Positions 1 to 16,176 of a stretch of 50,304 nt of DNA are shown here, piece by piece (positions within the stretch are counted from its first letter, which is position 1; every line of letters starts with the position of its first letter). The stretch comes from a virus (lineage: Duplodnaviria; Heunggongvirae; Uroviricota; Caudoviricetes). The translations under genes and the position numbers were made by a program. The notes beneath the pieces are model-generated. The model was given only the letters and a program-made list of their open reading frames with translations. It was not told the DNA's origin and ran no database searches. Location: positions 128,001 through 178,304 of the IMG/VR virus record IMGVR_UViG_3300024999_000035. One strand, written 5' to 3'.

Positions 1-36
1 GATACAGAGAATAATTAAACTGTTATTTATGAATTG

Positions 37-1305
37 TTATGCAGAATATTTATATAGATACCATAAGTCATGATTTACTACTGCTTTACCTTGTCTGTCT
101 GTTTTGACTGATTTTCTTTCCTGCTTTTCACTGATAAAATTATTCGGCACAGGTTCACGGTCTTTAACTTCTATGCGTTGAATGGTGACAGTTTTATCAG
201 TTAATTTTACTACTTGAAAAGCTCTAATTAATATATCGCTTCCTACTTGATAAGCTCCTACAATGTCACCAATTTTAAAAGGATTTTCTGCTTTTATTTC
301 TTTTTCATCCTTCCAATCTTCTGGTATTTTTACTTCCTTAATTTCTGCATATGGGCAAGAAGCGTCATGTCCGGTTAGTGGGTGTTCTATGAACGTGGCT
401 GTTATGGTCTTAGGGTTAACTCGGATAACCTTTGCCCAACAATTGTAACGATAATTTTGGAACAAATAACCTGGTTTGATGTCTGATTTTGTATAAAGTT
501 TTCTGCCATCTTCTTCGAGTTTATTTTTAGTTTCTTCCATGCAATTCTGAAAATACCCCAACTTGTCAATTTGATACTCTAATTTGTCCATCATTTCATC
601 CAAATAACCTTGAATCTGTTCTGTTGTTTTTGCTTCATAAAAAGAAGATACTGCCTCATTGTTATTCTTTTTATGAATAATATCATTGTAATACGTTGCG
701 TTCTTTTCCAATTTTTTGATATGCTTCAAACATTCTTCAATACGGTTATTTAAGTAGATAGGATTTTTTAATTGAGTAGCATCAGCAGTTTGTCTTGCGG
801 TTTCCGCTTTTTCAGCAAAGTATTCTGACTTTTTATACTCTTCAAATCCTTTGTGGTATCTGTCATAAATCCTTTGTCTACGATTACCAAACGCTTGACT
901 TCCTGCATGTCCGGAAATAATTGGTTGAGTGAAAAAGGAATTATCTCCATGGTGAGACTCTAGTTCAGATTGCAGAGCTTTACCTCTGTTATTTGCATTT
1001 ACAGCATATTGGTCATAACGCTCTGCTCTATACTCTGCTTTTTCTTGTTTGCGTTCAAGTTGTTCGGCAAAGGTTAAGCGTTCACCAGCTTTCTCTTCCT
1101 CTGTAAATCCTAGTTTAATGGCAGTCTGAATTGCTCTATATTGGTTATGGATTCCGCGAGATACCCAAGCATTTGCTGATTTGCTAAAAAGGTATGAGCT
1201 TTTGATTTCCTTTTTAAGTTCATCGGATAATGCAAGATAATCAGATTTTTCAAAGTGTAACTCGATTTTGCCAGTTTCTAGATTCTTAATGTAATTTTTA
1301 CTCAT
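37..1305 (-). CDS. DUF3560-domain protein (mobile-element early/leading-region type)
   Basis: 422 aa ORF with SD AGGAGG; 'RAERY...QPIISGHAGSQAF..RRQRI' matches the DUF3560 pattern from memory. Confidence 0.75.
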   Translation of the reverse strand: MSKNYIKNLETGKIELHFEKSDYLALSDELKKEIKSSYLFSKSANAWVSRGIHNQYRAIQTAIKLGFTEEEKAGERLTFAEQLERKQEKAEYRAERYDQYAVNANNRGKALQSELESHHGDNSFFTQPIISGHAGSQAFGNRRQRIYDRYHKGFEEYKKSEYFAEKAETARQTADATQLKNPIYLNNRIEECLKHIKKLEKNATYYNDIIHKKNNNEAVSSFYEAKTTEQIQGYLDEMMDKLEYQIDKLGYFQNCMEETKNKLEEDGRKLYTKSDIKPGYLFQNYRYNCWAKVIRVNPKTITATFIEHPLTGHDASCPYAEIKEVKIPEDWKDEKEIKAENPFKIGDIVGAYQVGSDILIRAFQVVKLTDKTVTIQRIEVKDREPVPNNFISEKQERKSVKTDRQGKAVVNHDLWYLYKYSA

Positions 1306-1335
1306 GTTATGTACCTCCTAAATTTTAGCATCTTA

Positions 1336-1400
1336 GCAGGACTTGTGACCTGCTTTGTGCATTAATTAGAGCGTTTTGTTATACGCTCTAACCACTCTGC
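1336..1400 (-). ncRNA. Twister self-cleaving ribozyme (circularly permuted, type-P5-like)
   Basis: Minus strand reads GCAGAGUG-G-UUAGAGCGU(AUAACAAA)ACGCUCUAA-U-UAAUGCA-CAAA-GCAGG-UCACAAGU-CCUGC. It has the UAAUGC / GCAGAGUG core, a P4 stem with UCACAAG loop and a CAC:GUG pseudoknot. Confidence 0.85.
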
Positions 1401-1405
1401 AAGGG

Positions 1406-1531
1406 TTATTTCTGTGATTGCAATATAGAAATAGCTAAACGCAATTGTTCAATTTTAACCAAATGTTTAGATTTTTCTCCATTTTCTAATTGTTCCAATT
1501 TTTCTTTTAAAACATAAATTGCATAATCCAT
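1406..1531 (-). CDS. Small hypothetical protein (41 aa, MDYAIYVLKEK...)
   Basis: Read by hand; GGGAGGTG SD; stop codon lies 5 nt before the twister core. Confidence 0.7.
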   Translation of the reverse strand: MDYAIYVLKEKLEQLENGEKSKHLVKIEQLRLAISILQSQK

Positions 1532-1559
1532 AATTAACACCTCCCTTAAAAGTTTGGTT

Positions 1560-1835
1560 TTATTTGTTAATCAAATAGCAATGCTCAACTATCCATTTTC
1601 CTTCTTCTGCATGTATATAATGATCAAGTCTTACTCCGTTGTCTGCTCCATCAAGGCAATCTCCAAAAAGTGAATTACCTATTTTTGAACCATCAAAATA
1701 TTTTGCATTACTAGATACCTTATAACTTCTTTCTAACTCGGAAAAAGGTTTTGTGAAGCTATTTTCAGTGAAAACTATTACGGCTTCTTTCCAGTCCTTA
1801 GAATCCTTTAATTGTCTAAATGTTAATTTATCCAT
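1560..1835 (-). CDS. Hypothetical phage protein (91 aa)
   Basis: ORF track; AAGGAG SD; in operon orientation. Confidence 0.8.
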   Translation of the reverse strand: MDKLTFRQLKDSKDWKEAVIVFTENSFTKPFSELERSYKVSSNAKYFDGSKIGNSLFGDCLDGADNGVRLDHYIHAEEGKWIVEHCYLINK

Positions 1836-1844
1836 TCTAATCCA

Positions 1845-1935
1845 CTCTCCTTAAATTTTAATAGTCTCGAATCAAGGCGAAGTCCTGTTATTGTTATGTC
1901 ACTTCGCCCTATTTCCATACAATCAAAATTAGATT
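1845..1935 (-). ncRNA. Intergenic long hairpin with AUAACAAUAACA loop
   Basis: GGCGAAGU...ACUUCGCC stem with an outer imperfect stem running into the downstream SD. Confidence 0.7.
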
Positions 1936-2421
1936 TTATTCACTTATCAATTCAATAAAACAACCTTTAAAGAAATTACCTTGCCTTATATCATAGAATG
2001 AACTAAAAGGAATTTGAAGCTCTCCAATACCTTTTACCTGTTCCAATATTTTATCAAAATCAATATAACCTTGAGCAATTCCATACATTCCATATTTTAA
2101 CCTTTGATGACCGTATCTATCATTTTCAAGGTCAAAATAATTGTCTTCATTGTTATGGTATTCGTCCCATGTTGCACTTAAATTCTCGTTTTTGTCACTA
2201 AATGCATTTCCGGCAATAAAAGCAAGTTTGTTCTTTAGGTCTAAATCAGTTTCACAGATAAATGCTTTTCCATTGATAGCAATTGCAAAATCATTCATTA
2301 ATTGATGCTCCCAGTCTTTACACTTTTTATCTTGGAATTTTTCAGTGTTGAAAGTAATTTTATACATGTTGATACACGCTCCTTCAAATATTCTAGGCCA
2401 ATTGTTATAGATATTTTCCAC
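1936..2421 (-). CDS. Hypothetical protein (161 aa)
   Basis: ORF track; TGGTATAAT extended -10 upstream (~2455-2463); exact start uncertain. Confidence 0.7.
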   Translation of the reverse strand: MENIYNNWPRIFEGACINMYKITFNTEKFQDKKCKDWEHQLMNDFAIAINGKAFICETDLDLKNKLAFIAGNAFSDKNENLSATWDEYHNNEDNYFDLENDRYGHQRLKYGMYGIAQGYIDFDKILEQVKGIGELQIPFSSFYDIRQGNFFKGCFIELISE

Positions 2422-2517
2422 AATTGCCTTTTCTACTCCGTAATTGATATATTCATTATACCACTATTTTACGAAGTACAAAAGAGAATTAAGGCTAATT
2501 CTCTAAATATTTATTTC

Positions 2518-2658
2518 TTAGTTTAGATAATTTCTGATGCTCTGATATTGCGCCATAAATATTTCAGCATCTTCCTTAGTTTGTGGTACTCCAAATAGTT
2601 TAAAGTTTGCTTGTAAAAATCCGTCTGCATGTAGCTTTTGAATAAATTCCAGTGCCAT
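2518..2658 (-). CDS. Small hypothetical protein (46 aa, MALEFIQKLH...)
   Basis: Read by hand; AAAGGAGGT SD. Confidence 0.7.
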   Translation of the reverse strand: MALEFIQKLHADGFLQANFKLFGVPQTKEDAEIFMAQYQSIRNYLN

Positions 2659-2666
2659 TATTTTTA

Positions 2667-2745
2667 CCTCCTTTAGTTTATATTCCCTCGACAACGTTTC
2701 AACCTGTTTTGTTATGGCTGAAACGCTCTGAGAACATACACACTA
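2667..2745 (-). ncRNA. Intergenic long hairpin with AUAACAAAACA loop
   Basis: GCGUUUCAGCC/GGUUGAAACGU stem; 3' arm has GUCGAG then the SD; begins at the upstream stop codon. Confidence 0.7.
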
Positions 2746-2898
2746 AGATTCTAGCATTTCTTTCAAATTGTCTAATAATTTCTTTTCTTCTGCTCCTGCT
2801 TTATCTAATGGGTTTAATTGTCTGTTTGCCCAATTTACCAACTTCAAAAGTATTTCTTTTTCTTGCTCAGTAACATAAATAGCTTTATATGTTGCCAT
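2743..2898 (-). CDS. Small hypothetical protein (51 aa, MATYKAIYVTEQEKE...)
   Basis: Read by hand; GAAAGGAG SD. Confidence 0.7.
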   Translation of the reverse strand: MATYKAIYVTEQEKEILLKLVNWANRQLNPLDKAGAEEKKLLDNLKEMLES

Positions 2899-2939
2899 TA
2901 TTTTGCTCCTTTCTTTCAGTTTATGTGCTCTATATGTAT

Positions 2940-3494
2940 TTAACTTTTACCTGCAAACTCACCATATAATTCTTTTCTCATTTTCTCAGCATATTTTCCT
3001 GCCTCTTCTAGTTGATCTTTCGGGAATCTTTTTAATGTGGTATTCACTCCCTCAATTTGAAGTTGAACAGACCAAGTGTTACCATTCCAACTAACATTTC
3101 TATATCCTGATTTATTATTTATGTTCTTACTCTTTTTATTCTTGGTATTTTCGCTATTTGTTGTTACTCTTAAATTTGATCTTCTATTATCTAATGTATT
3201 TTCTGCTTCTTTGTGATCGACATATTCATCTTCCTTTGCATTCATAATCCATCTATGAAGATAATGAATTTTATATTTAACTTTTCCATCAAGAGAACCC
3301 AAATATTCACACCAACAAACATAATATGCCCATCCTGCCCACTTAATATGCCAAGGTTGATTATGTTTTATAAGTCTTTTTAGTATATCCTCATCTACTA
3401 AAATAGTGAACTTTTCCTTCTTTTTATTTACTATGTAAAATTGACATTCTCCATCTATTATTTTATATTCGTTGAATGGTTTAAATCGTGCCAT
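2940..3494 (-). CDS. HNH endonuclease with C-terminal AP2 domain (free-standing homing endonuclease)
   Basis: YLHRWIM..VDH....LDNRRSNLR HNH motif plus N.SGYRNVSW..W.VQ AP2 motif. Confidence 0.9.
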   Translation of the reverse strand: MARFKPFNEYKIIDGECQFYIVNKKKEKFTILVDEDILKRLIKHNQPWHIKWAGWAYYVCWCEYLGSLDGKVKYKIHYLHRWIMNAKEDEYVDHKEAENTLDNRRSNLRVTTNSENTKNKKSKNINNKSGYRNVSWNGNTWSVQLQIEGVNTTLKRFPKDQLEEAGKYAEKMRKELYGEFAGKS

Positions 3495-3677
3495 ATTATT
3501 TAAATTCCTTTCTATTTTTATTTACTTTATTTAGTTTTCTTCTTCCTACCCTCCTTAAATTAATATAGAATTTGTACTCTATGCCATTATAGCACTTCAT
3601 ACTATAAAAACCAAATAAATTTATTTTGGCATTTAGTATACGAATATAACTAAATGCCATTCCCGTTTAATTCCAAC

Positions 3678-3757
3678 TCCTTTTAAATTTGACTCGACAC
3701 AAAATAGCGAATCTGTTATAAGTTCCGCTACCTTATGACCAACAAACTTTAAGGATT
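3678..3757 (-). ncRNA. Intergenic long hairpin with UAUAACAG loop
   Basis: CCUUAAAGUUUGUUGG...UAGCGGA/UUCGCUA...GUGUCGAGUCAAAUUUAAAAGGAG; outer arms nearly identical to the element at 5398-5486. Confidence 0.7.
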
Positions 3758-3946
3758 TAATATGCTTTTTACTTCCATCATATGAATAGTATTCTCTAAT
3801 TCGTGTTCGGCTCCTGTCCAATGGTCAATATTACCTTCAGGAAAATTAAAGCCGTTTTCCCATGTAATATCACCATTTTTCATATCAATAGATTTTCGAT
3901 ACCAGGTTTTACGATTTTCTAAACAAACCAATAAATCATTTTTCAT
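3749..3946 (-). CDS. Hypothetical protein (65 aa)
   Basis: ORF track; AAGGAGTG SD. Confidence 0.7.
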   Translation of the reverse strand: MKNDLLVCLENRKTWYRKSIDMKNGDITWENGFNFPEGNIDHWTGAEHELENTIHMMEVKSILNP

Positions 3947-3954
3947 TTAATTCA

Positions 3955-4040
3955 CTCCTTAATTTTAATAGACTCAAACCGAAACATCAAATCGTTATTG
4001 TTATTTGATGTTTCAGGTTTCAACCTACTTTTAAGGATTA
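3955..4040 (-). ncRNA. Intergenic long hairpin with AUAACAAUAAC at the apex
   Basis: 12-bp GAAACAUCAAAU/AUUUGAUGUUUC stem; 5' CCUUAA pairs with the UUAAGG SD region. Confidence 0.7.
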
Positions 4041-5390
4041 AGCAACATTAACATTGTTTACAATATTTAGAATTGCTTGAGCGTCTTCTTGATTTTCTTC
4101 TGCATCGTCCAACTCTTCTGCGGTCACTGTTATAGCAGGTTCAAGGTTTTCAGGCTGTAAAGGTTGCTCCCATTGCTCTTCAATGATTTCCTTTTGTTCA
4201 ACTTCAGGCTCAACCTCTTCAACCTGTTCAAAAGAATTTAGTTTGCTCAACTCTGAATTAATAGCATTCAATCGCATTTCCACACGTTTTAGGTCAATAA
4301 CCTTATCCTGCAAGCCTTCCTTATAATCCTTAGAAGGAGCCTGAAAGAATTTATAAGCCCATGCTGAAAACTCTTCAACGTCAACATTATTTCTTAATGC
4401 AGAATGCGCCGAATACATCAACATAACCGTATTAGTCTTATTCAACCATGTATACCGATAAGTTGAATAATTCTTAACCCTTTTACTCCCTTCTTTTTCA
4501 TCTTCTTTCTTTTTGTTGCTAATCCAAATTTCTGTTGCTTGACTGAGGTAATTAGAGACATTTATCATATCGTCTTCAATTTCTTCCGGCAGTCCCAATT
4601 CTCTAAAGCTATAAATTGACTTGTCAATATTGTCTTTTGATAGCTCAATTGGGCCATTGTTATGTAATAGCGTGATGACTTGAGATAAAATCTCGTCTCC
4701 GGCATTCCCTTTTGTCGCTAGTGGGGTTAGAGCATGTAAAATCCAGTCACTATCCAAAATTGATCTAAAGAATTTACGTGTATCGCTCCCCATAGCTGCT
4801 TTGCGAATCTCAGAAGGTTTTAAACCTTTAGCTCCGCTATTCATTTGAACGAATGCTTTTTCTGCATCTTCCTCAGAACAATTATTCATAGTTGTTATTC
4901 TGAGTTGATAACCTTTAATAATATCCTGCCATAGTTCAGGAAGTTCTGAAAATGTTTTGCCCTGGAGTGTTTCGTTAGCGTTAAATTGTTCGCCTTCAAT
5001 AGTAAACTTAGGAAACATGGTTTTTGATACATCAAGTTTGAACCCATTGTTAATGAAAAGGTAAATTGAAGTTAATCTCTGCTGCCCATCCACTGTTTTA
5101 CGAAATTGGCTTTTATCATCGGCTCTGTAAACTGTTATTTCGGGAATAGGATTTTTTAGAAGAACAGTTTGGATTAAGTTTGAAGCTCTCCAAGTCTCCC
5201 AGACGTATGCTCTTTGAGATTCCATGTACTCTCGAAGAGTTTTAAGTTCCTTACCTTCGGCTTCCTTTTTATCGGCAAGAAAATTTTGCAAATGTTTGCC
5301 GACTGTGTAATATTGCTTTTCAATATGTTCAACTAGAGTTCCAATGTCTCGTTTTTCCGTGGTATAAGTGATTTCTTTTTCTTCAGACAT
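4038..5390 (-). CDS. DUF262 (ParB/Srx-like, GmrS-type) domain protein with acidic C-terminal tail
   Basis: QRAYVW, DGQQRLTSI and FVQMNSG..L motifs; start re-called to ATG 5390 (MSEEK) after GAAGGAG SD. Confidence 0.85.
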   Translation of the reverse strand: MSEEKEITYTTEKRDIGTLVEHIEKQYYTVGKHLQNFLADKKEAEGKELKTLREYMESQRAYVWETWRASNLIQTVLLKNPIPEITVYRADDKSQFRKTVDGQQRLTSIYLFINNGFKLDVSKTMFPKFTIEGEQFNANETLQGKTFSELPELWQDIIKGYQLRITTMNNCSEEDAEKAFVQMNSGAKGLKPSEIRKAAMGSDTRKFFRSILDSDWILHALTPLATKGNAGDEILSQVITLLHNNGPIELSKDNIDKSIYSFRELGLPEEIEDDMINVSNYLSQATEIWISNKKKEDEKEGSKRVKNYSTYRYTWLNKTNTVMLMYSAHSALRNNVDVEEFSAWAYKFFQAPSKDYKEGLQDKVIDLKRVEMRLNAINSELSKLNSFEQVEEVEPEVEQKEIIEEQWEQPLQPENLEPAITVTAEELDDAEENQEDAQAILNIVNNVNVA

Positions 5391-5397
5391 TTTTACC

Positions 5398-5486
5398 ACT
5401 CCTTCTAATTTACTCGACACTAGCAACAAATTGTTATGTCTGTTATTTTTATCTTGTTGCTAATAACGAACAAACTTTAAGGGTTA
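5398..5486 (-). ncRNA. Intergenic long hairpin with two AUAACA copies in the loop
   Basis: UAGCAACAA/UUGUUGCUA stem; CCUUAAAGUUUGUU 5' arm and GUGUCGAGUAAAUUAGAAGGAG 3' arm. Confidence 0.7.
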
Positions 5487-5744
5487 GTTAATTGAGGTAA
5501 TATCCCACGAATAAACCTGAATTCTTTTTCCTTCTGCTGTTACAAGATTGTAAACAATTGCGTCTGATTGATGACTAAAAAATACATTCAGACATTTACC
5601 CTCAACTCGTGTACGCTCACAAGTCCTTAAATTCAGTTTATTGGCCTTGACATATTTTCCAATGTCTGCCTTGTCTTGTTCTGCTCCTTCCATCATTGCT
5701 CTGTCAATTGATGCGTTTTTGCTTGCCATTGATGTAAAACTCAT
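5484..5744 (-). CDS. Hypothetical protein (86 aa)
   Basis: ORF track; AAAGGAGTGG SD directly downstream of the hammerhead. Confidence 0.8.
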   Translation of the reverse strand: MSFTSMASKNASIDRAMMEGAEQDKADIGKYVKANKLNLRTCERTRVEGKCLNVFFSHQSDAIVYNLVTAEGKRIQVYSWDITSIN

Positions 5745-5764
5745 TTAATACCACTCCTTTTCTA

Positions 5765-5839
5765 ATTAACCTGCCATCTTCAGTATGTAGCGGTTAACCT
5801 ACATAGACAAGGGACTTAATGTTATTCCCTTGTTTCGGC
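5765..5839 (-). ncRNA. Hammerhead ribozyme, type II
   Basis: GCC-GAAA-CAAGGGA(AUAACAUUAAG)UCCCUUG-UC-UAUGUAG(GUUAACCG)CUACAUA-CUGAAGA-U-GGC-AGGUUAA. Full core, GUC cleavage triplet, and loop I UUAACC can pair with the 3' GGUUAA. Confidence 0.92.
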
Positions 5840-5962
5840 TTATTCCTCCCATTTATAGGAAATTACTTCTAAATCCTCTTTCTCTAGGTTATAAACTTCT
5901 TCTAGGTCGTTGCACTCAAGAAATTGAGTGGTGCCACCATTTTTAACCTTTACAATATACAT
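5840..5962 (-). CDS. Small acidic hypothetical protein (40 aa, MYIVKVKNGG...)
   Basis: Read by hand; GAAAGGAG SD; stop codon abuts the hammerhead. Confidence 0.7.
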   Translation of the reverse strand: MYIVKVKNGGTTQFLECNDLEEVYNLEKEDLEVISYKWEE

Positions 5963-6005
5963 TGTTTACTCCTTTCCAATCCCAACAAATGTCTTTTTGA
6001 TTGGG

Positions 6006-6428
6006 TTAAGATTTCACTCGATATGCTTTTGACACTAAAGCCTCTAAACACTGTTTAAACACCTTTTTTAGTTGTGACTTAGTCATACCATAGTCAAAGG
6101 GAATTTTAATTCCAAATGAACCATTGCAGGAATTTACCCCATAACCAATGTGAAAACAAGGGATATCAGAATAAGGAGCAAAAACAATGTTATATGTACT
6201 ATCATAGAAACCTTTAGTAATGTGTGGGTAGTTGCTAACGTGTACAATTTCATTACCAACTATTTCTCCATATTGTACACCTATTTGAATAGCAGGGAAT
6301 AATGTTGCATCTAAATTGCTTGCAACGTAATCGCGGAAAGTTAAAACAATTTGATCACGTTTCGCATGGATTTCCTTTTGTGTTTTTACCTTTGCAGTTT
6401 TACGCTCAACAACTTTTAATAATGACAT
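6006..6428 (-). CDS. Hypothetical protein
   Basis: ORF track 6006..6464; start re-called to ATG 6428 after GAAAGAGGT SD. Confidence 0.75.
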   Translation of the reverse strand: MSLLKVVERKTAKVKTQKEIHAKRDQIVLTFRDYVASNLDATLFPAIQIGVQYGEIVGNEIVHVSNYPHITKGFYDSTYNIVFAPYSDIPCFHIGYGVNSCNGSFGIKIPFDYGMTKSQLKKVFKQCLEALVSKAYRVKS

Positions 6429-6448
6429 AATTATTACCTCTTTCATTC

Positions 6449-6636
6449 TTAAATTTTTGCACAAGGTCTAAACTCAATTGTTATAAAAGTTCACACCTTG
6501 CGGAAAATTTAATCCCTTCAGCCTTAAGTATAATCAATTTAACATTAAATTACAACAACCTGCATTTTAATTTTGTTATGCAAGTTTAGTGTAATTGTTA
6601 TGATTAAATTGTAATAATGAATAAACTGAAGGGATT
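6449..6636 (-). ncRNA. Two adjacent long hairpins carrying AUAACAA
   Basis: 6449-6512 (UUAAAUUUU..GCAAGGU / ACCUUGU..AAAAUUUAA) and 6511-6636 (AAUCCCUUCAG/CUGAAGGGAUU closing stem). Confidence 0.65.
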
Positions 6637-6674
6637 TTATAGAATGTTTTTGGTTAATTCTCTCTTTTTGCTTC

Positions 6675-7035
6675 AGGGATATGCTTTTGTTAATGCCTAC
6701 AATTTAATTTTTAGTTAAGAATGTCTTTTAACTTGCAAAGATAATTTTTTAAGCTGTACAAATCAGAAAATTGTATTTTCTTTTCTGGAGCATATTTCGA
6801 AATTTTCATAGAAGTGTAGGCTGATATTTCGAAATCACAGAAACAAATTTGATCGAATTGGTTATAATTTTCTTCATTCCTAATTATTTCATCGTTAGTA
6901 TTAAAAACCTTTAATTGAGGAAAATTATTCACAATTTCCTCGAAATGATTTTTAACGATATAATCAGAAGAAATTAAAGCTATCATAATTTTATCATACT
7001 CCTTTTTGAGTAGGCACTAACAGGAGCATATCCCT
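6675..7035. repeat. 26-bp inverted repeat enclosing gene 6711-6986
   Basis: AGGGATATGCTTTTGTTAATGCCTAC (6675-6700) vs GTAGGCACTAACAGGAGCATATCCCT (7010-7035); 23/26 complementary. Confidence 0.9.
6711..6986 (-). CDS. Hypothetical protein (91 aa)
   Basis: ORF track; AAAGGAG SD; lies inside an IR loop. Confidence 0.7.
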   Translation of the reverse strand: MIALISSDYIVKNHFEEIVNNFPQLKVFNTNDEIIRNEENYNQFDQICFCDFEISAYTSMKISKYAPEKKIQFSDLYSLKNYLCKLKDILN

Positions 7036-7041
7036 AGAGAT

Positions 7042-7220
7042 TTTTATCTTTTCCTCTATCCCTTCTAAAATATTCCTATTTGTTTCGTTATCTTGTACTT
7101 TCATTTCTTCTTGGCTGCTTTCTGCATCATTCGCAAAATTAAGCTTTTGAATGAAATATACTAACACAGAGGACTTCTCTACGTTCGGAATATTTTAGGA
7201 AAGGATAAGGGAAGATAAAA
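7042..7220. repeat. ~35-bp imperfect inverted repeat enclosing ~110 nt
   Basis: TTTTATCTTTTCCTCTATCCCTTCTAAAATATTCC (7042-7076) vs GGAATATTTTAGGAAAGGATAAGGGAAGATAAAA (7187-7220). Confidence 0.85.
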
Positions 7221-7230
7221 GAGAGTTTTT

Positions 7231-7511
7231 AAGGCTTTTCAATCTAGCTTAGAACATAGCATGTTATTGTTATTTAAAAATTCTTTTGATATTCTGCTCT
7301 CCATTTTCCGTCAAAAACTTCGTAAGAATCTTTTAAAAGATATCCGGTTTTTGATAACCATTCCGATCTTGATAATGCCATAATTTCCTTATTCATTTCT
7401 TCTTGACTGTCATATTCGTAAATTTGAATCTCAATAACTTGTTTCGACATTTTCAACAACTCCTTAAATATTAAGTATGTTGCTATGCTCTAAGCTAGAC
7501 TAAAAAGTCTT
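7231..7511. repeat. 30-bp inverted repeat enclosing gene 7274-7450
   Basis: AAGGCTTTTCAATCTAGCTTAGAACATAGC (7231-7260) vs 7482-7511; 4 differences, 3 of which are G-U pairs in the minus-strand RNA. Confidence 0.9.
7274..7450 (-). CDS. Small hypothetical protein (58 aa)
   Basis: Start re-called to ATG 7450 after AAGGAG SD; stop is followed by ATAACAATAAC. Confidence 0.75.
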   Translation of the reverse strand: MSKQVIEIQIYEYDSQEEMNKEIMALSRSEWLSKTGYLLKDSYEVFDGKWRAEYQKNF

Positions 7512-7931
7512 TTATCCCTTACAATTATACCTACATCCTGTCTTAATTTCCACTCTCTTTTTCGAGGAACAAACAAATTATTTTTGACTTTAAATTGATA
7601 AACTGTATGTAGATCCCCATTGGCCTCCCATTGGGCCAGACTTGATTGTTATGGAATATCCAGCTTTTTCGATTCGGAGAAGCAAAGCAAAGAATGATGC
7701 TTGATATTTTGAAGAGTAGTATCGAGCTTTGCCTTTTAGAGATTTTAAGGGATTTGTTATAGTGGAATAGGATAATAGGTCTTTTAGGATTTGATACTGC
7801 CATGAACCCTTTGCAAGTTTTAAAAATGAATCTTTTTGAGTTTGTGACATTTTTATTTCCCACTTTCTTAATTTTATTTTTTATTAAGAGAGCAGAAATT
7901 AAGACAAGAATTAAGTTTTTGTAAGAGATAA
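7512..7931. repeat. ~47-bp imperfect inverted repeat enclosing gene 7590-7850
   Basis: 7512-7559 vs 7886-7931; mismatches in the paired segments are G-U wobbles on the minus strand, around a central internal loop. Confidence 0.85.
7590..7850 (-). CDS. Hypothetical basic protein (86 aa), first gene of the leftward operon
   Basis: ORF track; 'LKGKARYYSSKYQASF..L' looks conserved; inside an IR loop. Confidence 0.75.
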   Translation of the reverse strand: MSQTQKDSFLKLAKGSWQYQILKDLLSYSTITNPLKSLKGKARYYSSKYQASFFALLLRIEKAGYSITIKSGPMGGQWGSTYSLSI

Positions 7932-7933
7932 TT

Positions 7934-8085
7934 TGCTGTCTAGCATACAGACTGATGAGCTGCCTTTAGCTGAGTTAAGCTAGATCACGCATATTAAGTT
8001 GAGAAAGAACGTCCTTACAAGTCGGACAAGACTTGTGCTACTGGCTGTAAAACCACTTTGTAGCTGGTGTACTCGCTACCCTCCT
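7934..8085 (-). ncRNA. Candidate structured 5' leader RNA
   Basis: GC-richer than its flanks; hairpins ACAAGUC/GACUUGU (loop UUGUCC, can pair with downstream GGAC), UAGC/GCUA and GUCU/AGAC; follows a consensus promoter. Confidence 0.5.
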
Positions 8086-8117
8086 TTGTTTTATTTATGT
8101 ATTGTTTAACTGTCTTT

Positions 8118-8146
8118 ATTTTAATGGTTTGCAAGGGATATGTCAA
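8118..8146 (-). promoter_or_regulatory. SigA-type promoter for the leftward operon
   Basis: TTGACA-N17-TAAAAT. Confidence 0.8.
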
Positions 8147-8481
8147 CAATTATTTTTGCATTATTAGACGTTTTGTAGTCCTATTTTATTGTAGTGGATA
8201 TAGACACAATTCAAATGATTTTATTGATCTTGTGGTCTTATTTACCACATTTCGCTTCTGAGACGTTTAAAATGTATGCTAGGTAAGAATATAAAGGCCA
8301 GTATGTTTAAATCGCTTAGAGTGGCCTTTTTGTGGCTGTGATTTTGGTGTGATTTTGGTGTGATAGGGTTAAAAGTTGTGGAATTGATTTTTTGTGAGTG
8401 ATCCCGGCAAAACCTAAAGCATATAAAAATGGATTTTTAATGGGTTGGAGAGAAAAGAAAAAGAGCTATTTTATTCAGCTC

Positions 8482-9075
8482 TTACTCATAAAACATTTTG
8501 GAATTTTTAAACTCATTGACTTTGTTTTTAATAAATTGGTCTATATCGAATTTTACCATTTCGGTATTAATATATTGATTTGAGAAAGTACAAACTGTGT
8601 AATAATTGATATAACTTGTCGAGGGTATTTTTAATTGTTCGTTAATGTCTATAATTAGTTCAACGGTTTCCTTCCTGCGGTTTACTTTAGCAAGGAGGAC
8701 ATATTTTTTATATTCAACGTTACTATATGATGTCCTGTACCTTTCCCCTGCTTCTGATAGTTCATAAACCTTTTTAATGTTTTCTGGTAATAATGCAAGA
8801 AAATTTTCTTGACTGAGCATGTCTCGTTCCTTCTCTGCATTGTCTAATGTTGCAATGTAGCGGTTAAAACTGCTTTTGTTTTTAGTCTGGTATATTGTAT
8901 CATCTCCCAAAAATTCTTCAACTTCGATATTGAGTTTTTCGGCTAATTGCTTCAGATTGCATTTGTAACCATATTCACGGCTAGAGTTTGGATAAGTCAC
9001 ATAATATTTACTAGCCTTTTTTACAATTGATCCTGCAAACTTGGATTGCAATTGCTCAAGTTTTAACTCCTTCAT
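8482..9075 (-). CDS. Hypothetical protein
   Basis: Start re-called to ATG 9075 (MKELK) after AAAGGAG; TGCTATAAT upstream. Confidence 0.75.
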   Translation of the reverse strand: MKELKLEQLQSKFAGSIVKKASKYYVTYPNSSREYGYKCNLKQLAEKLNIEVEEFLGDDTIYQTKNKSSFNRYIATLDNAEKERDMLSQENFLALLPENIKKVYELSEAGERYRTSYSNVEYKKYVLLAKVNRRKETVELIIDINEQLKIPSTSYINYYTVCTFSNQYINTEMVKFDIDQFIKNKVNEFKNSKMFYE

Positions 9076-9320
9076 TGCGCCAACTCCTTTAATATATCTG
9101 ATATTAACATTATAGCACAGAAACAATAAAAATAGTCATGTTGAATAAAATTATTTTTACATTTGATAAGGTTTAAAGGGTTATATTTTGCCAGTGGTGT
9201 ATGTATATAGGGTATAGAGTATAAACCACTTAGAGTGCCATTTATGACGTTCTAAGGGTTATTTGATGCCTATAAGATATAGGTTTCGAATACAAAAAGA
9301 AAAAACCCTATAAATAGGGT

Positions 9321-9476
9321 TTAATATCTTTGATTTTCATAAGCATTTTCTACCATGCACTCTATTTCAAACTCTTCTTGGCCTTGTGCTTCTTGATCTT
9401 TTAAGCAATCTTTATAATCTTTACATTTATTACACTTATCAGAATATGTTTTAGGATTCCCAAAATCATCACACAT
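9321..9476 (-). CDS. Small Cys-rich protein (51 aa)
   Basis: Read by hand; AAAGGAG SD; followed by hairpin AAACCCTAT/ATAGGGTTT and a T-run. Confidence 0.65.
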   Translation of the reverse strand: MCDDFGNPKTYSDKCNKCKDYKDCLKDQEAQGQEEFEIECMVENAYENQRY

Positions 9477-9734
9477 ATTAAATTACTCCTTTTTATTTTG
9501 TTTGATTATAATATATCAAAATTTATGAATATTGTCTAGTGGTTTGTAAAAATTATTTTATTCCCCATTAAATTGGGCATTTGGATTGCTTTGGAATATT
9601 AATAACTGGCCTAAACTATGTTCTGCTACAACACAATAAAAATAAGTAAAATGTTGCTTGCTGCACGCACAAAAACACATATGTATTTGTAGGAAGGACA
9701 TTGGAAATAAAGAAAAAGGACTTATTACTAAGTC

Positions 9735-9911
9735 CTAAAATAACATACTATAATTATTAGCTTGTTCTATATCATCAAACCAAATTTTATTATGACATTG
9801 TGGGCATATTTTTGTATTGTCCCAATCAACGCCTTTTTGTATTTTGTTTCCGCAAGCTTCACATTCCCAGTGGTCTTCTAGTTCTATGTATATTACATCT
9901 TTATCCTGCAT
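9735..9911 (-). CDS. Small zinc-ribbon protein (58 aa)
   Basis: Read by hand; AAGGAGGTG SD; CEAC...CPQC. Confidence 0.75.
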   Translation of the reverse strand: MQDKDVIYIELEDHWECEACGNKIQKGVDWDNTKICPQCHNKIWFDDIEQANNYSMLF

Positions 9912-9989
9912 TTTTTCACCTCCTTCAATAATTAATTTATATTATCATTAATGATGGTATATGTCTATACAAAAAGAAAAGAAGTATTT

Positions 9990-10742
9990 CTACTTCTTAA
10001 TCTCTTTTACTAATACTCTAAAGTGCCAACACTGTATATTATAACCTCCTGCTGATATTGTCTCAACTTTTGCCTTTCCTAGTTCGCCTATGATATAACC
10101 GTTAATTTCTCCATTTAGGCCAATGTATAAGTTTTGAGCATCTAAAATCTTTCCAGTGATCTTTTTTACTCTTGTTACTAAAAATTGCCTTTTTATGTTT
10201 TTATCTTTTTCAATTTCCCTTTCTAATTCTTTTTCCCAACTATTTCTATAAAGTTGGTATAGTTTTAGTGTGAGAGAATGAAAAGAAGAGTTTAGTTTTT
10301 TAGCTTGCGTTTCGTGATCTATACCTAGTTCTTTTTGCTTTTCTTTATACTCCTTTCCATAGTGGTATATATGGGTTTCTTCCTGCCATAATCTGAATTC
10401 TTTTTCCTTTTTGCTTAACTCCTTGTGGTATTCTTTTAGGTTTTGATATTCCACTTTAAACCACTCAATAACTTTTATTTTCCATTCTTCTAAAAATTCT
10501 TCAATGACTGGAATTCGCTCAACTTCGTTTTTCTTCTGCTCTTTCTCCTGTTGTTTGGAAAGATTTTCTAATTGGATCTCTAAGTCTTTGAGTTTAGACT
10601 GACTTGTTTTTAAGTCATCTTTTGCCCATTTAAGATCCCATTCGTCGGTAATAGTTTCAATTTTCTTCTCTTGCTTAGTGATTAAGTTTTTTCTTTTCTG
10701 GATGTCTAATTGTTTTTTATCGATCCGCTCTAATAGTGTCAT
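9990..10742 (-). CDS. Coiled-coil phage protein (250 aa)
   Basis: AAGGAGG SD; C-terminal GEINGYIIG...VETISAGGYNIQCWHFRVLVK resembles a widespread phage hypothetical family. Confidence 0.8.
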   Translation of the reverse strand: MTLLERIDKKQLDIQKRKNLITKQEKKIETITDEWDLKWAKDDLKTSQSKLKDLEIQLENLSKQQEKEQKKNEVERIPVIEEFLEEWKIKVIEWFKVEYQNLKEYHKELSKKEKEFRLWQEETHIYHYGKEYKEKQKELGIDHETQAKKLNSSFHSLTLKLYQLYRNSWEKELEREIEKDKNIKRQFLVTRVKKITGKILDAQNLYIGLNGEINGYIIGELGKAKVETISAGGYNIQCWHFRVLVKEIKK

Positions 10743-10959
10743 ATGTATCCTCCTTAAAATTGATCATGATTAATAATACCATACAAATTAATAAAGTACA
10801 ATATAATTATTTCTATATTCAATAATAATTTTAAAAATTGCGTTCGTTCCATTTTATCATGAAAATTATAGATTTGTATATAGGTTTTAGAAAATTATTT
10901 TATAGTTCTGCTACCGATAAAACAAGAGATTTAAGGCATTGAGACAAAGAAAAAGAGAC

Positions 10960-11376
10960 TTATTCAGCCTCTTTAGCACCAACTAACAAATATTCGCCAT
11001 CACTACCAAATTTATAAGGATTTAGATACCCTTCAATTTTTACAACTGGCCTATTTTTTGTAGCAATAAACATTAGAGATACTTTATCAACATCATTATT
11101 TTCAATACCATAAATCTCCATTGTGGATACTCCATGCTCCGGTAACTGATCCCTAAAATTATAACTTTGTCCTGATTCTGGAATATCTCCATATCTCCAA
11201 CCTTTGACATATTCAGGAAAATCATAACCTTTATAACCACACTCAAAAAAGAAATTTAGAGTAAAATCAAAAAAGTAAATATCTGGTGCAAGATTGCTGT
11301 ATATAATGGTGCTTATGTCAGTTCCTTGGAGGGATTTTCCTTTGTTGTATGCATTAATAAAAGATTGGTTTGTCAT
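10960..11376 (-). CDS. Hypothetical protein, possible ADP-ribosyltransferase-like fold
   Basis: AAGGAGG SD; GWRYG...EHGVS...GSDGE pattern; function is inference. Confidence 0.6.
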   Translation of the reverse strand: MTNQSFINAYNKGKSLQGTDISTIIYSNLAPDIYFFDFTLNFFFECGYKGYDFPEYVKGWRYGDIPESGQSYNFRDQLPEHGVSTMEIYGIENNDVDKVSLMFIATKNRPVVKIEGYLNPYKFGSDGEYLLVGAKEAE

Positions 11377-11429
11377 TGGGTGTGACCTCCTTTATTGATA
11401 TTGAATTAGTAGATAATAAGATAATAAAA

Positions 11430-11458
11430 AAACCTATGATTTATTTTATCATAGGTTT
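11430..11458 (-). terminator. Intrinsic terminator-like hairpin
   Basis: AAACCTATGAT/ATCATAGGTTT followed by a T-run on the minus strand. Confidence 0.6.
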
Positions 11459-11485
11459 ATGGATAGTGCAATATTATTTTTATAT

Positions 11486-11803
11486 TTAATCCTGAAGCAA
11501 TCCAAGGTCAATTATTTTATCATCAGCAATATTTTCCGGTGTATTGTTGCTATCCACTGAGCATTCAAACCATTTGTCTTTTACATTTGATGCAGTAAGG
11601 ATTATAAAGGCTTCGCCATTTTCATTTTGTAGGATTGTATGATAAGCTGAATCTAATGGACTGTAGGTAGATTGTGTGGCTAGTGCTATCATTGTGTAGG
11701 AGTGATCGGAGTTTGGTTGTATTGAGGGTGAAGCTGAAGTTGTTAGGATTGAAGATGTTAGGAGAGTGAGGGAAAGGGTTAAGATAGATATTAATTTTTT
11801 CAT
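11486..11803 (-). CDS. Secreted/exported small protein
   Basis: Signal peptide MKKLISILTLSLTLLTSSILTTSAS. Confidence 0.75.
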   Translation of the reverse strand: MKKLISILTLSLTLLTSSILTTSASPSIQPNSDHSYTMIALATQSTYSPLDSAYHTILQNENGEAFIILTASNVKDKWFECSVDSNNTPENIADDKIIDLGLLQD

Positions 11804-11826
11804 TTTGTGGCCTTCTTTCTTTTATT

Positions 11827-12081
11827 TTATCTAAATACCAATTCTAGGTTTAAGTCTTTACCGTGACCCAATTTGATAGCATCGTGTAAGAGATTATACA
11901 CGGTTAATTCGTTGAAGGTATCAGCAGAAGTATTTTCAAATGCTACATGTTTAAATGCTTTTCTTCCTTCTCCAGTATAATTTTCCTCTAAATAGTTGAA
12001 AGCTTCTTGAATAGTTCTTTTACCGTTTAGGACTTTAGAAAGGATTTGATTGACTCCATTAGGCCAGTATGCTTTTTGCAT
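11827..12081 (-). CDS. Hypothetical protein (84 aa)
   Basis: AAGGAGG SD; TTTACA-N18-TATAAT promoter at 12124-12153. Confidence 0.75.
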   Translation of the reverse strand: MQKAYWPNGVNQILSKVLNGKRTIQEAFNYLEENYTGEGRKAFKHVAFENTSADTFNELTVYNLLHDAIKLGHGKDLNLELVFR

Positions 12082-12439
12082 TTATGTATTTCCTCCTTTT
12101 GATATTTATTTAGTAATATTGATATTATAGCATTGATTTATATTTATTGTAAAGTATTTATTTTAGAATTTATAAACATATCAAAGGAATAAGAAGAAAG
12201 AAAAGATTATTAGAAGTATAAATTCAGTCATTGAGCGAATAGCGAAATGCTGACATACGGTCTCGGATCACTGTATTTATTGAGAATTATAATATTAGGA
12301 TTTAAATAAATCTAATCAAAATTAATAAAGTTGATAAATGCTATTTTGAGCTTGTCTCAAAATTGAAAAGACGCTGTCAGCTAATGTTAGTTTTGATTTG
12401 ATTATTTGGATTAGTCAATTATACTATATTAAGGGTTCG

Positions 12440-12491
12440 TAATTCGTCACCAATATCTATATTAATATATATAGTTATTCATGACGAATTA
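12440..12491. repeat. 10-bp inverted repeat around an AT-rich core (ori-like)
   Basis: TAATTCGTCA-N32-TGACGAATTA immediately downstream of the helicase-like gene. Confidence 0.6.
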
Positions 12492-12494
12492 GAA

Positions 12495-14234
12495 TTATTT
12501 CTTAATTATATGATTAACTCGATTAATCTTTATTAATTCTATATTTAACTCATTAACTATTTTTTGGACAATATCATCTTTCCATAGTCTACTAAAATTA
12601 GTTGGTTTATATTCTATTTGTTCTAATAAATCATTAACTGGATATTGCTTATTAACATCTAACAATTTAAGTAATTCAATAAATTTATTACAATAACTAT
12701 TTTCTTTTCTCTCCTTGCTATCATATTTCTTTACTTTTTCCTCATGCAATTTAAAATTAACAACATTAATATCTTTTAGTTGTTGAATAATAACATTTAC
12801 AATCTCAATATCACCATTAATTAAATAAACGTCTGCTTTATCTTCTATATGCCCTGTTCCCCTATTAATTCTTTTAATCCCTTGATATATACTAGATATA
12901 ATATCAGTTTTCCTTAAACTCTCCAATGTTTCATTATATTTAAATCCCATGTTTTTATTGATTTTCTGGAATTTAAATTCCTCTTCGGTTGGCACTTCTC
13001 CTGTATAAAGCATATACATGAATATGTAATAGGGTGCTGGCATTACTGGCGTGTGAATAATAAAGCATTTATTAAAATCTTTCCAATCGTTCTTTCCTCT
13101 CATATTTTGGAAATTACTATATTTGATATTCTCTAGATGTATAAGTTTCTCACTGTAATTATTATTTATGTGTGCAATATCCTCTTCTAGTCCTAACACT
13201 AAAATATTATCCTTTTCAGCGCATTCCTTGATAATTAATGCCACAATATCTTTATAAAAATTATCATCATTATGTTTTGCTGTTTTGGTGCTATTAGTGT
13301 TAGATATATGGATAGTCCAATTATTATGCGGAAAAATGCGCTCTGCTTCATTAAGTTTGAATTGATTTCCTAGTTTGTATAGTTCGTGGAATTTTGCTGA
13401 TGCATCAAGAAGTATATTATTGTCAAGGAAGAAATACTTTAAATCATCATCAAAAGTATATAATGTTTTATTACTGACTAATACTTTAGGATTATTAAAG
13501 TATTTCTTTAGTATTTCAAGTTTATCTAATAGTTTAAGTTTATTTGTAAATATATTCTGACTATAACCTAAATGGAATTCATAATTATTTGTAAAAGGTG
13601 TTTCATTAACCATTAATTTTAACATATCAATTGCTTTTTCTATCTTTGTGCTAGTAAATTCAAAATATCTTAATGTTTTGTCGTGACATTGATCCTTCTT
13701 TTCAACTAATTCAGATATGATTCTATTGAATGCTACTTCTAAATCGATATACATATTTTCTTCAGCATCAATATATTTTAAACCTCTTAGGGTTCGTCTT
13801 AATATGTCTATGTCTGTATCTCCCAGAGAATCCATTTCAACCATATTTAATTCTTCATCAATTATTAAATTTGTACGCTCTGCTATGTAATATTTGCGTT
13901 TATGATAAGGGTCTTTACAGAGTTTTTTATACATTGCATGAGTAATAATGAGCACTTCATACTTTTTAAGGTCTTTCTCATATCTTTCCTTATTTTCTGA
14001 ATTCTCATCTTTAGCCATGTTTGGTTTAAATTTATTAAGTTCACTTGCAATTAGTTTTCCCTCATCAATAAATTTTGTTACAATTAAAGTTTTGATTGGT
14101 TTATTGTTTAATGAGTTCGTGGTGGCTGATAGTTCCTTTAGTGTTTCAATAATTGTATGAGTTTTTCCGATTGCTGCCTCACACATAAAGACATTAAATA
14201 ATTCTTCAATTTTAGTAAATATACTATTATTCAT
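12495..14234 (-). CDS. SF2 helicase-like / Rep-associated P-loop protein
   Basis: Walker A EAAIGKT, IITH, Walker B LIIDEE, LDASA, RGKND, YQGIKRINR; start re-called to ATG 14234 after AAGGAG, coupled to the upstream stop. Confidence 0.75.
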   Translation of the reverse strand: MNNSIFTKIEELFNVFMCEAAIGKTHTIIETLKELSATTNSLNNKPIKTLIVTKFIDEGKLIASELNKFKPNMAKDENSENKERYEKDLKKYEVLIITHAMYKKLCKDPYHKRKYYIAERTNLIIDEELNMVEMDSLGDTDIDILRRTLRGLKYIDAEENMYIDLEVAFNRIISELVEKKDQCHDKTLRYFEFTSTKIEKAIDMLKLMVNETPFTNNYEFHLGYSQNIFTNKLKLLDKLEILKKYFNNPKVLVSNKTLYTFDDDLKYFFLDNNILLDASAKFHELYKLGNQFKLNEAERIFPHNNWTIHISNTNSTKTAKHNDDNFYKDIVALIIKECAEKDNILVLGLEEDIAHINNNYSEKLIHLENIKYSNFQNMRGKNDWKDFNKCFIIHTPVMPAPYYIFMYMLYTGEVPTEEEFKFQKINKNMGFKYNETLESLRKTDIISSIYQGIKRINRGTGHIEDKADVYLINGDIEIVNVIIQQLKDINVVNFKLHEEKVKKYDSKERKENSYCNKFIELLKLLDVNKQYPVNDLLEQIEYKPTNFSRLWKDDIVQKIVNELNIELIKINRVNHIIKK

Positions 14235-14238
14235 AATT

Positions 14239-14523
14239 TTACTCCTTAAAGGTATTAGTTGTTCGTGTGCTTGTTGGTTTAGTGTTTGCAATATTGATTT
14301 TGTAGACATCATTAAAAGTATTATTCCTCCAATCGTGAAATTCTTTTATAGTTTTTTGTAATTCAGGACTATTAGAAAATATGAATACATTTAAATTTGG
14401 ATTATCCCTTGATTGCTCCATATTATGTAGTTTAAACCCTTTGAGCATAAAGAACCCACATAATTGTTGTGATTTGCAAACAAAAACAGGTGAATATGAT
14501 TTTGAATAATTAGCGTTATTCAT
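14239..14523 (-). CDS. DUF5659-like small protein
   Basis: SQQLCGFFMLKGF...NVFIF.NS.EL pattern; AAGGAG SD. Confidence 0.7.
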   Translation of the reverse strand: MNNANYSKSYSPVFVCKSQQLCGFFMLKGFKLHNMEQSRDNPNLNVFIFSNSPELQKTIKEFHDWRNNTFNDVYKINIANTKPTSTRTTNTFKE

Positions 14524-14671
14524 TGATAATTAACTCTCCTTTTAATTATATTTGATTTTTTGTTACTTGTATTGGGATTAGATTATAATAAGACTGATGT
14601 ATATTTTTACTCCTTTCAATTTATTTTGTAAATATTGTCTAGGAAATAAATTTGAATATCCCTAGAAGTTC

Positions 14672-14700
14672 ATTATAGCATTTATAGAAATGGTTGTCAA
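14672..14700 (-). promoter_or_regulatory. SigA promoter
   Basis: TTGACA-N17-TATAAT with TG extension. Confidence 0.85.
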
Positions 14701-14909
14701 ACATTATTTTATGGTTTGTTTTTTGTAGTGATCGGGAAGATTAGAGTTGATAATTATTAGTATTATAGGATTTGAGATTATAGCGGAATGTAGTTTATAT
14801 TGCTTTGATATGCGCTAGGATTGGTTGTGAGAGGGTTTATGTGATTAGATGAAGGATTAAGAAAAGAGACTCGTTAGAGCCTCTTAGTGATTTTATTTTA
14901 TTTTTGATG

Positions 14910-15293: not shown

Positions 15294-15570
15294 TTGGATA
15301 CACTTCCTTTTTATTTATTTTTGGTTTGAATGATTTATGTAATTGATTTATTTTAGCATAGTATTTTAGGTTATGTCAATGGTGTATTTTATATTTATGT
15401 TGTAGGCGGATTGATTTGTAATAGTATAAAGGATTTATAAAGGTTGATAGATTTAGTATTAGAGGTCACAGGATGATGTTTAAGAGGTTTAGATAGGATT
15501 GGAGTATAATTCCAGGTGAAAGAAAAATGAGAGCGTTTAAGTCCTCATTTGATGGATTTTATTATTCATT

Positions 15571-15708: not shown

Positions 15709-15774
15709 TTTGTTCTTACTCCTTCCCTTACCATTTTATCTCTACTTTAAAAGTTGGTTTATCTTTCCTTATTG

Positions 15775-15999: not shown

Positions 16000-16176
16000 A
16001 TTGGTTCACCCCTTTCTATAGATTTGTATAATTAATTCTATATTATCAAATATTATAGCATATGTCAAACAATTATAATTATTTTAATATTGTAGGTTGT
16101 TATAAGTAAATTGTTATGGTGTTATAATGATTCTGTTATATGCAAAATAGACAAAGAAAAGGTAAGATTTTACATC

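What the first reader, a model, noticed from the sequence alone, without database searches (positions are those of the whole stretch)
1..8146. Early operon punctuated by ribozymes and hairpins sharing an AUAACA loop tag
Seen: most gene junctions downstream of the promoter at 8146 carry an RNA structure. AUAACA, often doubled as AUAACAAUAAC, sits in the loop or apex of the hairpins at 1845, 2667, 3678, 3955, 5398, 6449 and 6511. It is also in the variable loops of both the twister (P1) and the hammerhead (stem III), right after the stop at 7274, and at 21-40. Unrelated scaffolds displaying the same motif argues for selection on a shared ligand. Inference: a phage RNA-binding protein coordinates antitermination, processing or translation of the whole operon. 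I do not recognise this as a described system.
Basis: partly seen in the sequence, partly recalled or inferred. Interest (0 to 1): 0.9.

Follow-up and report, generated by a model that had tools for sequence, protein, structure and literature searches.

The report
One-strand hexamer code, phage early operon
A family of large temperate phages packs a six-letter word about every 300 bases into its first-expressed operon and avoids the same word on that DNA strand everywhere else, which points to an undescribed one-directional control signal, probably for switching early genes off, whose reader is still unknown.

Summary
Observation confirmed: 29 ATAACA copies on the operon strand of 1-8200, none on the other strand. 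They sit in the named hairpin loops, an Rfam twister and a type II hammerhead. But it is not only a loop tag. Twelve of the 29 lie inside ORFs, and the zone runs about 9 kb beyond the window. The same zone marks related SPbeta-like phages, including cultured Perkons and Geobacillus E3, but not SPbeta, Tsamsa or four others. Outside the zone the word is avoided on the same physical strand (W), both in middle mRNAs and antisense to late genes (194 observed, 410 expected); the other strand is neutral (474/515). An operon-specific activating RNA-binding protein does not predict this, and the operon has no strong intrinsic terminators. Best reading (0.35): a negative, single-strand-read signal for a sequence-specific RNase or termination factor that shuts off early W transcripts. 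Rivals: polar DNA nick or motor site, activating RBP, replication-linked site. A phage MazF-like gene is a candidate but is missing from some motif-bearing genomes. First readers of two other genomes in this scan also noted AUAACA loops.

The parts
8118..8146 (-). sigmaA-type promoter heading the early operon; the motif-rich zone starts just downstream of it
   Evidence: 11/12 match; no minus-strand ATAACA between 8200 and 16100
1..8146 (-). 5' half of the early operon (continues about 9 kb left of the window to genome ~119 kb); 29 ATAACA copies, 12 inside ORFs (7760, 7652, 6193, 5138, 4898, 4663, 4133, 2408, 2156, 992, 665, 405)
7231..7511 (-). long RNA helix enclosing ORF 7274-7459; doubled motif at 7273/7267 on the 3' side of the loop
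   Evidence: -68.3 kcal/mol; relatives skip this cassette (joint 7267-7454)
6535..6611 (-). hairpin with motif in loop (6579) and in 5' arm (6601)
6449..6512 (-). hairpin with motif in loop (6484)
5773..5839 (-). type II hammerhead ribozyme; motif in loop III (5825), 5' of the predicted cut at 5806/5805
   Evidence: core read; no Rfam hit
5398..5488 (-). stop-to-SD long hairpin (RNase III-like), two motifs in loop (5446, 5437)
4038..5390 (-). stand-alone GmrSD_N/DUF262 (ParB-like) protein gene
3955..4041 (-). stop-to-SD long hairpin, motif in loop (4004); compensatory changes in relatives
3678..3756 (-). stop-to-SD long hairpin, motif at apex (3719)
2667..2746 (-). stop-to-SD long hairpin, motif in loop (2715)
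1845..1933 (-). stop-to-SD long hairpin, doubled motif in loop (1897, 1891)
1337..1401 (-). type P5 twister ribozyme; motif in the loop closing P1 (1382), 5' of the cut
   Evidence: RF02684, 53.5 bits
37..1305 (-). DUF3560 protein gene; motif in its SD-ATG spacer (1310) and over its stop codon (40, 26)
16098..16139 (-). cluster of four ATAACA (spacing 14, 8, 14) about 20 nt downstream of an intrinsic terminator near the divergence point; two such clusters in relative G001

Best explanation
HATAACAR (H = not G preferred, R = G or A) is a polar, single-strand-read shut-off signal carried by the W strand, the sense strand of the early and middle genes. SHOWN: the early transcript is loaded with it about every 300 nt, in ORFs, after stop codons, in loops and after terminators, and the rest of W avoids it. 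SHOWN or family knowledge: the transcript is punctuated by ribozymes and long helices; in the twister, hammerhead and pistol the tagged loop lies just 5' of the cut, so it would cap the 3' stem-loop of the upstream fragment. INFERRED: a sequence-specific factor (endoribonuclease or termination factor) recognises the word in W-direction RNA and destroys or terminates the early message, removing the protective 3' hairpins and cutting inside ORFs, after the early phase and/or in the lysogen. INFERRED: other W-direction transcription must escape it, namely the middle mRNAs and W-direction read-through antisense to the late arm (late-gene silencing or transcription-assisted genome entry). Late mRNAs are indifferent. 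The factor is not identified; phage PemK/MazF is one candidate (about 0.15 overall).
For: Coding enrichment in early genes 250/102.9 (ATAACAR 195/67.3) and depletion in middle mRNAs 147/262 under a synonymous-codon shuffle. The same test recovers the known Bacillota MazF site UACAUA as enriched in non-early genes (bioRxiv 10.64898/2026.08.06.743204 and 10.1101/2023.04.27.537455). The zone starts sharply at the promoter. Sites are more unpaired than permuted words and strongly loop-displayed in this clade. Pair spacing peaks at 14 nt with no 10-11 bp phasing. Clusters lie just downstream of intrinsic terminators, like fail-safe signals. W-direction terminators are scarce in the late arm of motif-bearing phages (28 W against 80 on the other strand; controls 22 against 25). 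PemK/MazF is the only regulatory family in 8 of 11 motif-bearing genomes and in none of the SPbeta, Tsamsa or KKP_3916 controls.
Against: It needs functional W-direction RNA over the whole 45-60 kb late arm, where avoidance is uniform (O/E mostly 0.25-0.43); no transcript data show this, and few W promoters are seen there. G019 and G024 have a strong zone, strong avoidance and an intact MrpR/YopQ region but no PemK even by profile search. Geobacillus E3 has only divergent PemK-like genes elsewhere. No protein family is common to all motif-bearing and absent from all motif-free genomes. The accessibility effect is small. The terminator count is a crude scan on few, related genomes.
Confidence: 0.35

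Rival explanations
1. DNA-level polar site: the word is read on duplex DNA by an enzyme that moves one way along the linear genome, for example a packaging-coupled nickase that leaves single-strand breaks in the first-entering early region (as in T5, phiKMV, tf), or a pause signal for the ejection or packaging motor. Loops, stop codons and spacers are simply the free slots in a structured operon.
For: Avoidance follows the physical strand in both arms, uniformly, with the other strand neutral. In Perkons, whose record is in virion orientation with 264-bp terminal repeats (PMC13245101), the zone is 5-25 kb from the left end. In tf all 14 nick sites are on one strand, 11 in the left half, and the T5 consensus also occurs unnicked on the other strand (PMC3517423).
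Against: The zone begins at a promoter, not at the genome end, and same-strand genes between the end and the promoter are motif-poor. Known nick sites are few and longer. Loops are 4-5 times richer than other unpaired intergenic DNA in this clade. Terminase and portal trees do not follow the motif: Perkons portal groups with SPbeta, E3 terminase with KKP_3916.
Confidence: 0.22
2. One reading: an activating RNA-binding protein binds AUAACA loops and promotes antitermination, stability or translation of the early operon; avoidance elsewhere prevents ectopic read-through.
For: Loop display, doubled sites, 14-nt spacing and conservation; tagged pistol loops in several related phages; tagged hairpins become the 3' ends of processed fragments.
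Against: About half the sites are in ORFs. No strong intrinsic terminator lies in the G000 or G019 early operon. Clusters lie after, not before, terminators. It does not explain why antisense to late genes is avoided (0.42) while antisense to middle genes is not (0.90). No candidate RBP was found.
Confidence: 0.2
3. Replication-linked single-stranded DNA site: W is the lagging-strand template of a fork that crosses the genome in one direction, and the word is a primase, loader, fork-barrier or recombination-hotspot signal concentrated in the structured, hypervariable early region.
For: Fourfold-site GC skew is lower in late than in middle genes in most genomes, consistent with one-way replication. 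The reverse complement contains TTA, a Firmicutes primase triplet (own knowledge). Relatives gain and lose cassettes at the hairpins.
Against: The same skew occurs in motif-free SPbeta. Primase and helicase trees do not follow the motif. Priming sites should be needed, not avoided, along a lagging template. The promoter-sharp boundary is unexplained.
Confidence: 0.15
4. Compositional or codon artefact of AT-rich small genes.
For: The word is A-rich and contains TAA, so it overlaps stop codons often.
Against: Codon-preserving shuffles, single-substitution neighbours near expectation, rank 1-2 among all hexamers in seven genomes and no signal in six control phages, site conservation.
Confidence: 0.02

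Closest known systems
T4 RegB endoribonuclease and GGAG sites in early mRNAs (own knowledge)
   Same: A short RNA word marks early transcripts for removal while later ones escape.
   Different: RegB sites are mostly Shine-Dalgarno sequences; here the word is in ORFs, loops and post-terminator DNA, and is also avoided antisense to late genes. No RegB-like gene was identified.
Host MazF (U^ACAUA) exploited by SPbeta and phi3T (10.1101/2023.04.27.537455; 10.64898/2026.08.06.743204)
   Same: Six-letter single-stranded RNA site enriched in transcripts of the same phage family; that site is also enriched in this genome's non-early genes.
   Different: Different word, confined to the early unit, avoided elsewhere in a strand-polar way, and absent from SPbeta.
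Localized single-strand interruptions of T5, phiKMV-like and tf/LUZ24-like phages (PMC3517423)
   Same: One-strand motif clustered in the left part of a genome with convergent arms and short terminal repeats.
   Different: Those have 4-14 longer sites with nicks shown experimentally; here 50-70 hexamers tied to one transcription unit and no nick data.
Ribozyme-punctuated prophage operons (Perreault et al. 2011, PMC3088659) and RNase III-processed early operons of T7 and SPO1 (own knowledge)
   Same: Self-cleaving ribozymes and long intergenic helices divide a polycistronic early message.
   Different: This explains the scaffolds but not the shared word, which has not been described for those operons.
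Polar DNA motifs: Chi, KOPS/SRS, one-orientation EcoP15 sites of T7 (own knowledge)
   Same: Orientation follows the physical strand, not the genes.
   Different: Those are enriched or avoided along the whole molecule; here one orientation is both enriched about tenfold in one operon and avoided everywhere else.

Membership tests
Twister ribozyme, type P5 (RF02684) | Covariance-model score above the gathering threshold, full length | tested here: met
   53.5 bits against 37.6, model positions 1-58
Twister ribozyme, type P5 (RF02684) | Self-cleavage | not testable with these tools
   needs in vitro transcription
Type II hammerhead ribozyme | Core CUGAnGA, GAAA, NUH and three helices in type II order | tested here: met
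   read at 5773-5839
Type II hammerhead ribozyme | Rfam model match | tested here: not met
   no hammerhead hit at E<=10 in 1-20000; the short open stem II may account for this
Known Rfam motif (RAGATH and others) for the tagged hairpins | Covariance-model match | tested here: not met
RNase III substrates (stop-to-SD hairpins) | Long, nearly continuous helix kept with compensatory change | tested here: met
   folds of -25 to -30 kcal/mol; 4 of 19 pairs with two-sided changes in 4 sequences; conserved U(C/U)GA on the 3' arm
RNase III substrates (stop-to-SD hairpins) | Cleavage by RNase III | not testable with these tools
   no RNA holder listed
Target site of a phage PemK/MazF RNase | Enzyme gene present whenever the site pattern is present | tested here: not met
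   present in 8 of 11, absent from G019 and G024, divergent in E3
Target site of a phage PemK/MazF RNase | Catalytic Arg and Thr/Ser kept in this phage's PemK proteins | tested here: met
   alignments to B. subtilis EndoA; residue roles from own knowledge
nut/put-type antitermination site | Few sites upstream of terminators that are read through | tested here: not met
   50 or more sites, no strong intrinsic terminator in the operon, clusters downstream of terminators
Virion nick sites (T5/tf type) | One-strand motif concentrated in the left part of the virion genome | tested here: met
Virion nick sites (T5/tf type) | Physical nicks at the motif | not testable with these tools
   only assembled contigs were available
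SPBRE/MrpR operator | 15-bp intergenic element at promoters, present in SPbeta | tested here: not met
   6-7 nt word, half in ORFs, no zone in SPbeta

The most novel reading that the evidence does not exclude
The word is a genome-wide directional code read by a machine that travels the whole W strand once, such as an RNA polymerase pulling in the DNA or an ejection or packaging motor. Dense sites slow or stop it in the early operon so that host-takeover and anti-defence genes act first, and the rest of the strand is kept clear.
Probability: 0.22. Interest if true: 0.9.

Novelty: new variant of a known kind. Interest (0 to 1): 0.72.

Why it matters
How SPbeta-like phages without arbitrium time and silence their toxic early genes, and how large siphoviruses pace genome entry, are open questions. 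A conserved word shared by phages of Bacilli (Perkons, E3) and uncultured groundwater phages, with a sharp gain zone and strand-polar avoidance, gives a direct handle. The ribozymes and hairpins alone would be ordinary.

Tried and rejected
Rfam scans found only twister and pistol, no RAGATH motif. Literature searches for the word found nothing relevant. Phage PemK as the sole reader: attractive at first, weakened by G019 and G024. Search for a family unique to motif-bearing genomes gave only a mobile homing-endonuclease N-terminal domain and a 3D-domain cell-wall protein, both judged lineage effects. The YonO-like polymerase is rejected because SPbeta has it without the motif. WalR, PhoP and AgrA half-sites are rejected because neighbouring variants are not enriched and there is no 11-bp spacing. 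Integron attC is rejected because the word is in loops and ORFs, not the stem. Host Chi is rejected because known Bacillota Chi words are GC-rich (own knowledge) and SPbeta lacks the zone. No other control phage showed an equivalent word of different sequence. Limits: gene calls are my own simple ORF selection; early, middle and late boundaries were set partly from the motif density itself (one search used a fixed 28-kb zone instead); genomes are related, so pooled z-scores overstate independence; G006 shows enrichment without avoidance and phi116 only a weak TAACAG signal.
Full report
Context. The window is the last 50 kb of a 178,304-bp virus record held in groundwater metagenomes. It is SPbeta-like: it has an MrpR-family repressor, a protein clustering with SPbeta YonO, and the same divergent layout, with early and middle genes on one strand (here called W, the minus strand of the window) and late genes on the other. 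The structural module is missing from this record.

ATAACA occurs 29 times on the minus strand of 1-8200 and never on the plus strand. It is in the loops of all named hairpins, of an Rfam type P5 twister and of a type II hammerhead read from the sequence (no Rfam hit). The doubled form occurs only three times in the genome, all here. The promoter at 8146 is the best minus-strand consensus match. The zone continues to about genome 119 kb, where a pistol ribozyme also lies: 50 copies against 4.7 expected.

The scaffolds are of known kinds. Ribozyme-punctuated prophage operons were described in PMC3088659. The five stop-to-SD hairpins are long helices with a conserved U(C/U)GA on the 3' arm and compensatory changes, as expected of RNase III substrates (inference). 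In all three ribozyme classes the tagged loop lies just 5' of the cut, so it would cap the 3' hairpin of the upstream fragment.

The word is more than a loop tag. Twelve of the 29 copies are in ORFs. Under a synonymous-codon shuffle it is the most enriched hexamer of early coding sequence (24 against 6.8) and single-letter variants are near expectation. Across 11 genomes the consensus is HATAACAR, identical in coding and non-coding copies, with about half in ORFs. Loop display is strong in the G000/G001/G003/G017 clade and weak in Perkons, G004 and G006. Sites are kept in relatives more often than control words, 38/56 against 43/145.

It is a lineage trait. The zone is the top or near-top regional hexamer in G000, G001, G003-G006 and the cultured phages Perkons and Geobacillus E3, and is also present in G017, G019 and G024. 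It is absent from SPbeta, Tsamsa, KKP_3916, PJN02, vB_BcoS-136 and the Staphylococcus SPbeta-like phage. Two first readers noted similar loops in other genomes of this scan; I treat that as a lead, not as support.

The unexpected result is polarity. Pooled over ten genomes, observed/expected is 2.43 in early mRNA and 0.56 in middle mRNA. In late genes the sense word is neutral (0.96) but its complement is avoided (0.42). The avoidance therefore follows the physical W strand. In an unbiased scan ATAACA is the top non-palindromic, non-homopolymer hexamer avoided on W in both arms (194/410; other strand 474/515), and controls show nothing. Avoidance is uniform along the late arm. A combined score ranks the word first or second of all hexamers in seven genomes separately. 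The same null leaves TGTTAT near expectation in middle genes and in control late genes, so codon-pair bias does not explain it.

Mechanism. Enrichment in one transcription unit plus avoidance elsewhere suits a negative signal better than an activating one. The operon has no strong intrinsic terminator. Tight clusters lie just downstream of terminators near the divergence point. Sites are modestly more unpaired than permuted words and show 14-nt, not helical, spacing. I therefore favour a sequence-specific RNase or termination factor acting on W-direction RNA (0.35). This requires useful W-direction RNA across the late arm, for which I have only a weak hint: few W terminators there. A DNA-level polar site, as for the one-strand nicks of T5 and tf (PMC3517423), explains the polarity more directly but not the promoter-sharp start (0.22).

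This phage has two PemK/MazF genes in an agr-like cluster next to the lysogeny genes, and PemK is the only regulatory family in 8 of 11 motif-bearing genomes. But G019 and G024 lack it. The PemK proteins may instead relate to the host-type site UACAUA, which is enriched in non-early genes as reported for SPbeta and phi3T. No universal gene tree follows the motif, so a host factor or a small fast-evolving protein is possible.

Verdict. The feature is real, conserved and, as far as my searches reach, undescribed. Interest 0.72.

Noticed in passing
genome 70104-74777 (L020:4104-8777): agr-like cluster (AgrB, AgrD-like peptide, membrane proteins) with two PemK/MazF genes, one fused to an HTH-like domain, sitting where SPbeta has its arbitrium genes, just upstream of YopQ-like and MrpR genes; also in G001 and G003.
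   Followed up: partly
non-early genes of G000 and relatives: UACAUA, the host MazF site of Bacillota, is the top enriched hexamer in non-early coding sequence (117 against 65.5) and about 1.8-fold enriched in middle genes of relatives.
   Followed up: partly
L001:14259-14333 (genome ~122.4 kb): Pistol ribozyme in the same operon, a third ribozyme class; its P3 loop lacks the full word here but has it in relatives.
   Followed up: yes
window 2415-2494 and several places in L001 (e.g. 16110-16160, 16710-16790): A second hairpin class with an extended -10-like TGGTATAAT in the 5' arm, resembling promoter-operator or single-strand promoter elements.
   Followed up: no
window 2430-8177: Related phages in the same samples skip whole cassettes at or near the hairpins (joints 3648-5481, 2741-5390, 7267-7454, 6698-7012), so the hairpins may be exchange points of a modular array.
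   Followed up: no
window 17400-17600: Divergence point with flipped composition and an inverted ATAACA...TGTTAT pair at 17565-17536; likely the genome end region by analogy with Perkons.
   Followed up: partly
Alicyclobacillus phage KKP_3916 (L087-L092) and Staphylococcus SPbeta-like phage (L244-L250): GATTTG (0/14 and 1/14) and CAACAG (0/9 and 1/10) are almost absent in one physical orientation only, the pattern expected from evasion of type III or similar restriction systems.
   Followed up: no
early genes of G000, G001, G003, G017: Fourfold sites are C>G (skew -0.10 to -0.32) while middle genes are near zero or positive; resembles Rho-sensitive RNA but is not seen in Perkons or E3.
   Followed up: no
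genome 110076-110423 (L001:1976-2323): A third, degenerate PemK-fold ORF lacking the usual catalytic motif; a counterpart exists in G003.
   Followed up: no
G024 (349 kb record): Appears to be two phage genomes joined; its first ~155 kb mirrors G019.
   Followed up: partly
genome 106969-107190: Small ORF that looks HicA-like by eye; not tested.
   Followed up: no
window 22063-22908: Replication-initiator-like gene (HTH_36, DnaD_N, weak hits) about 5 kb on the late side of the divergence point.
   Followed up: no
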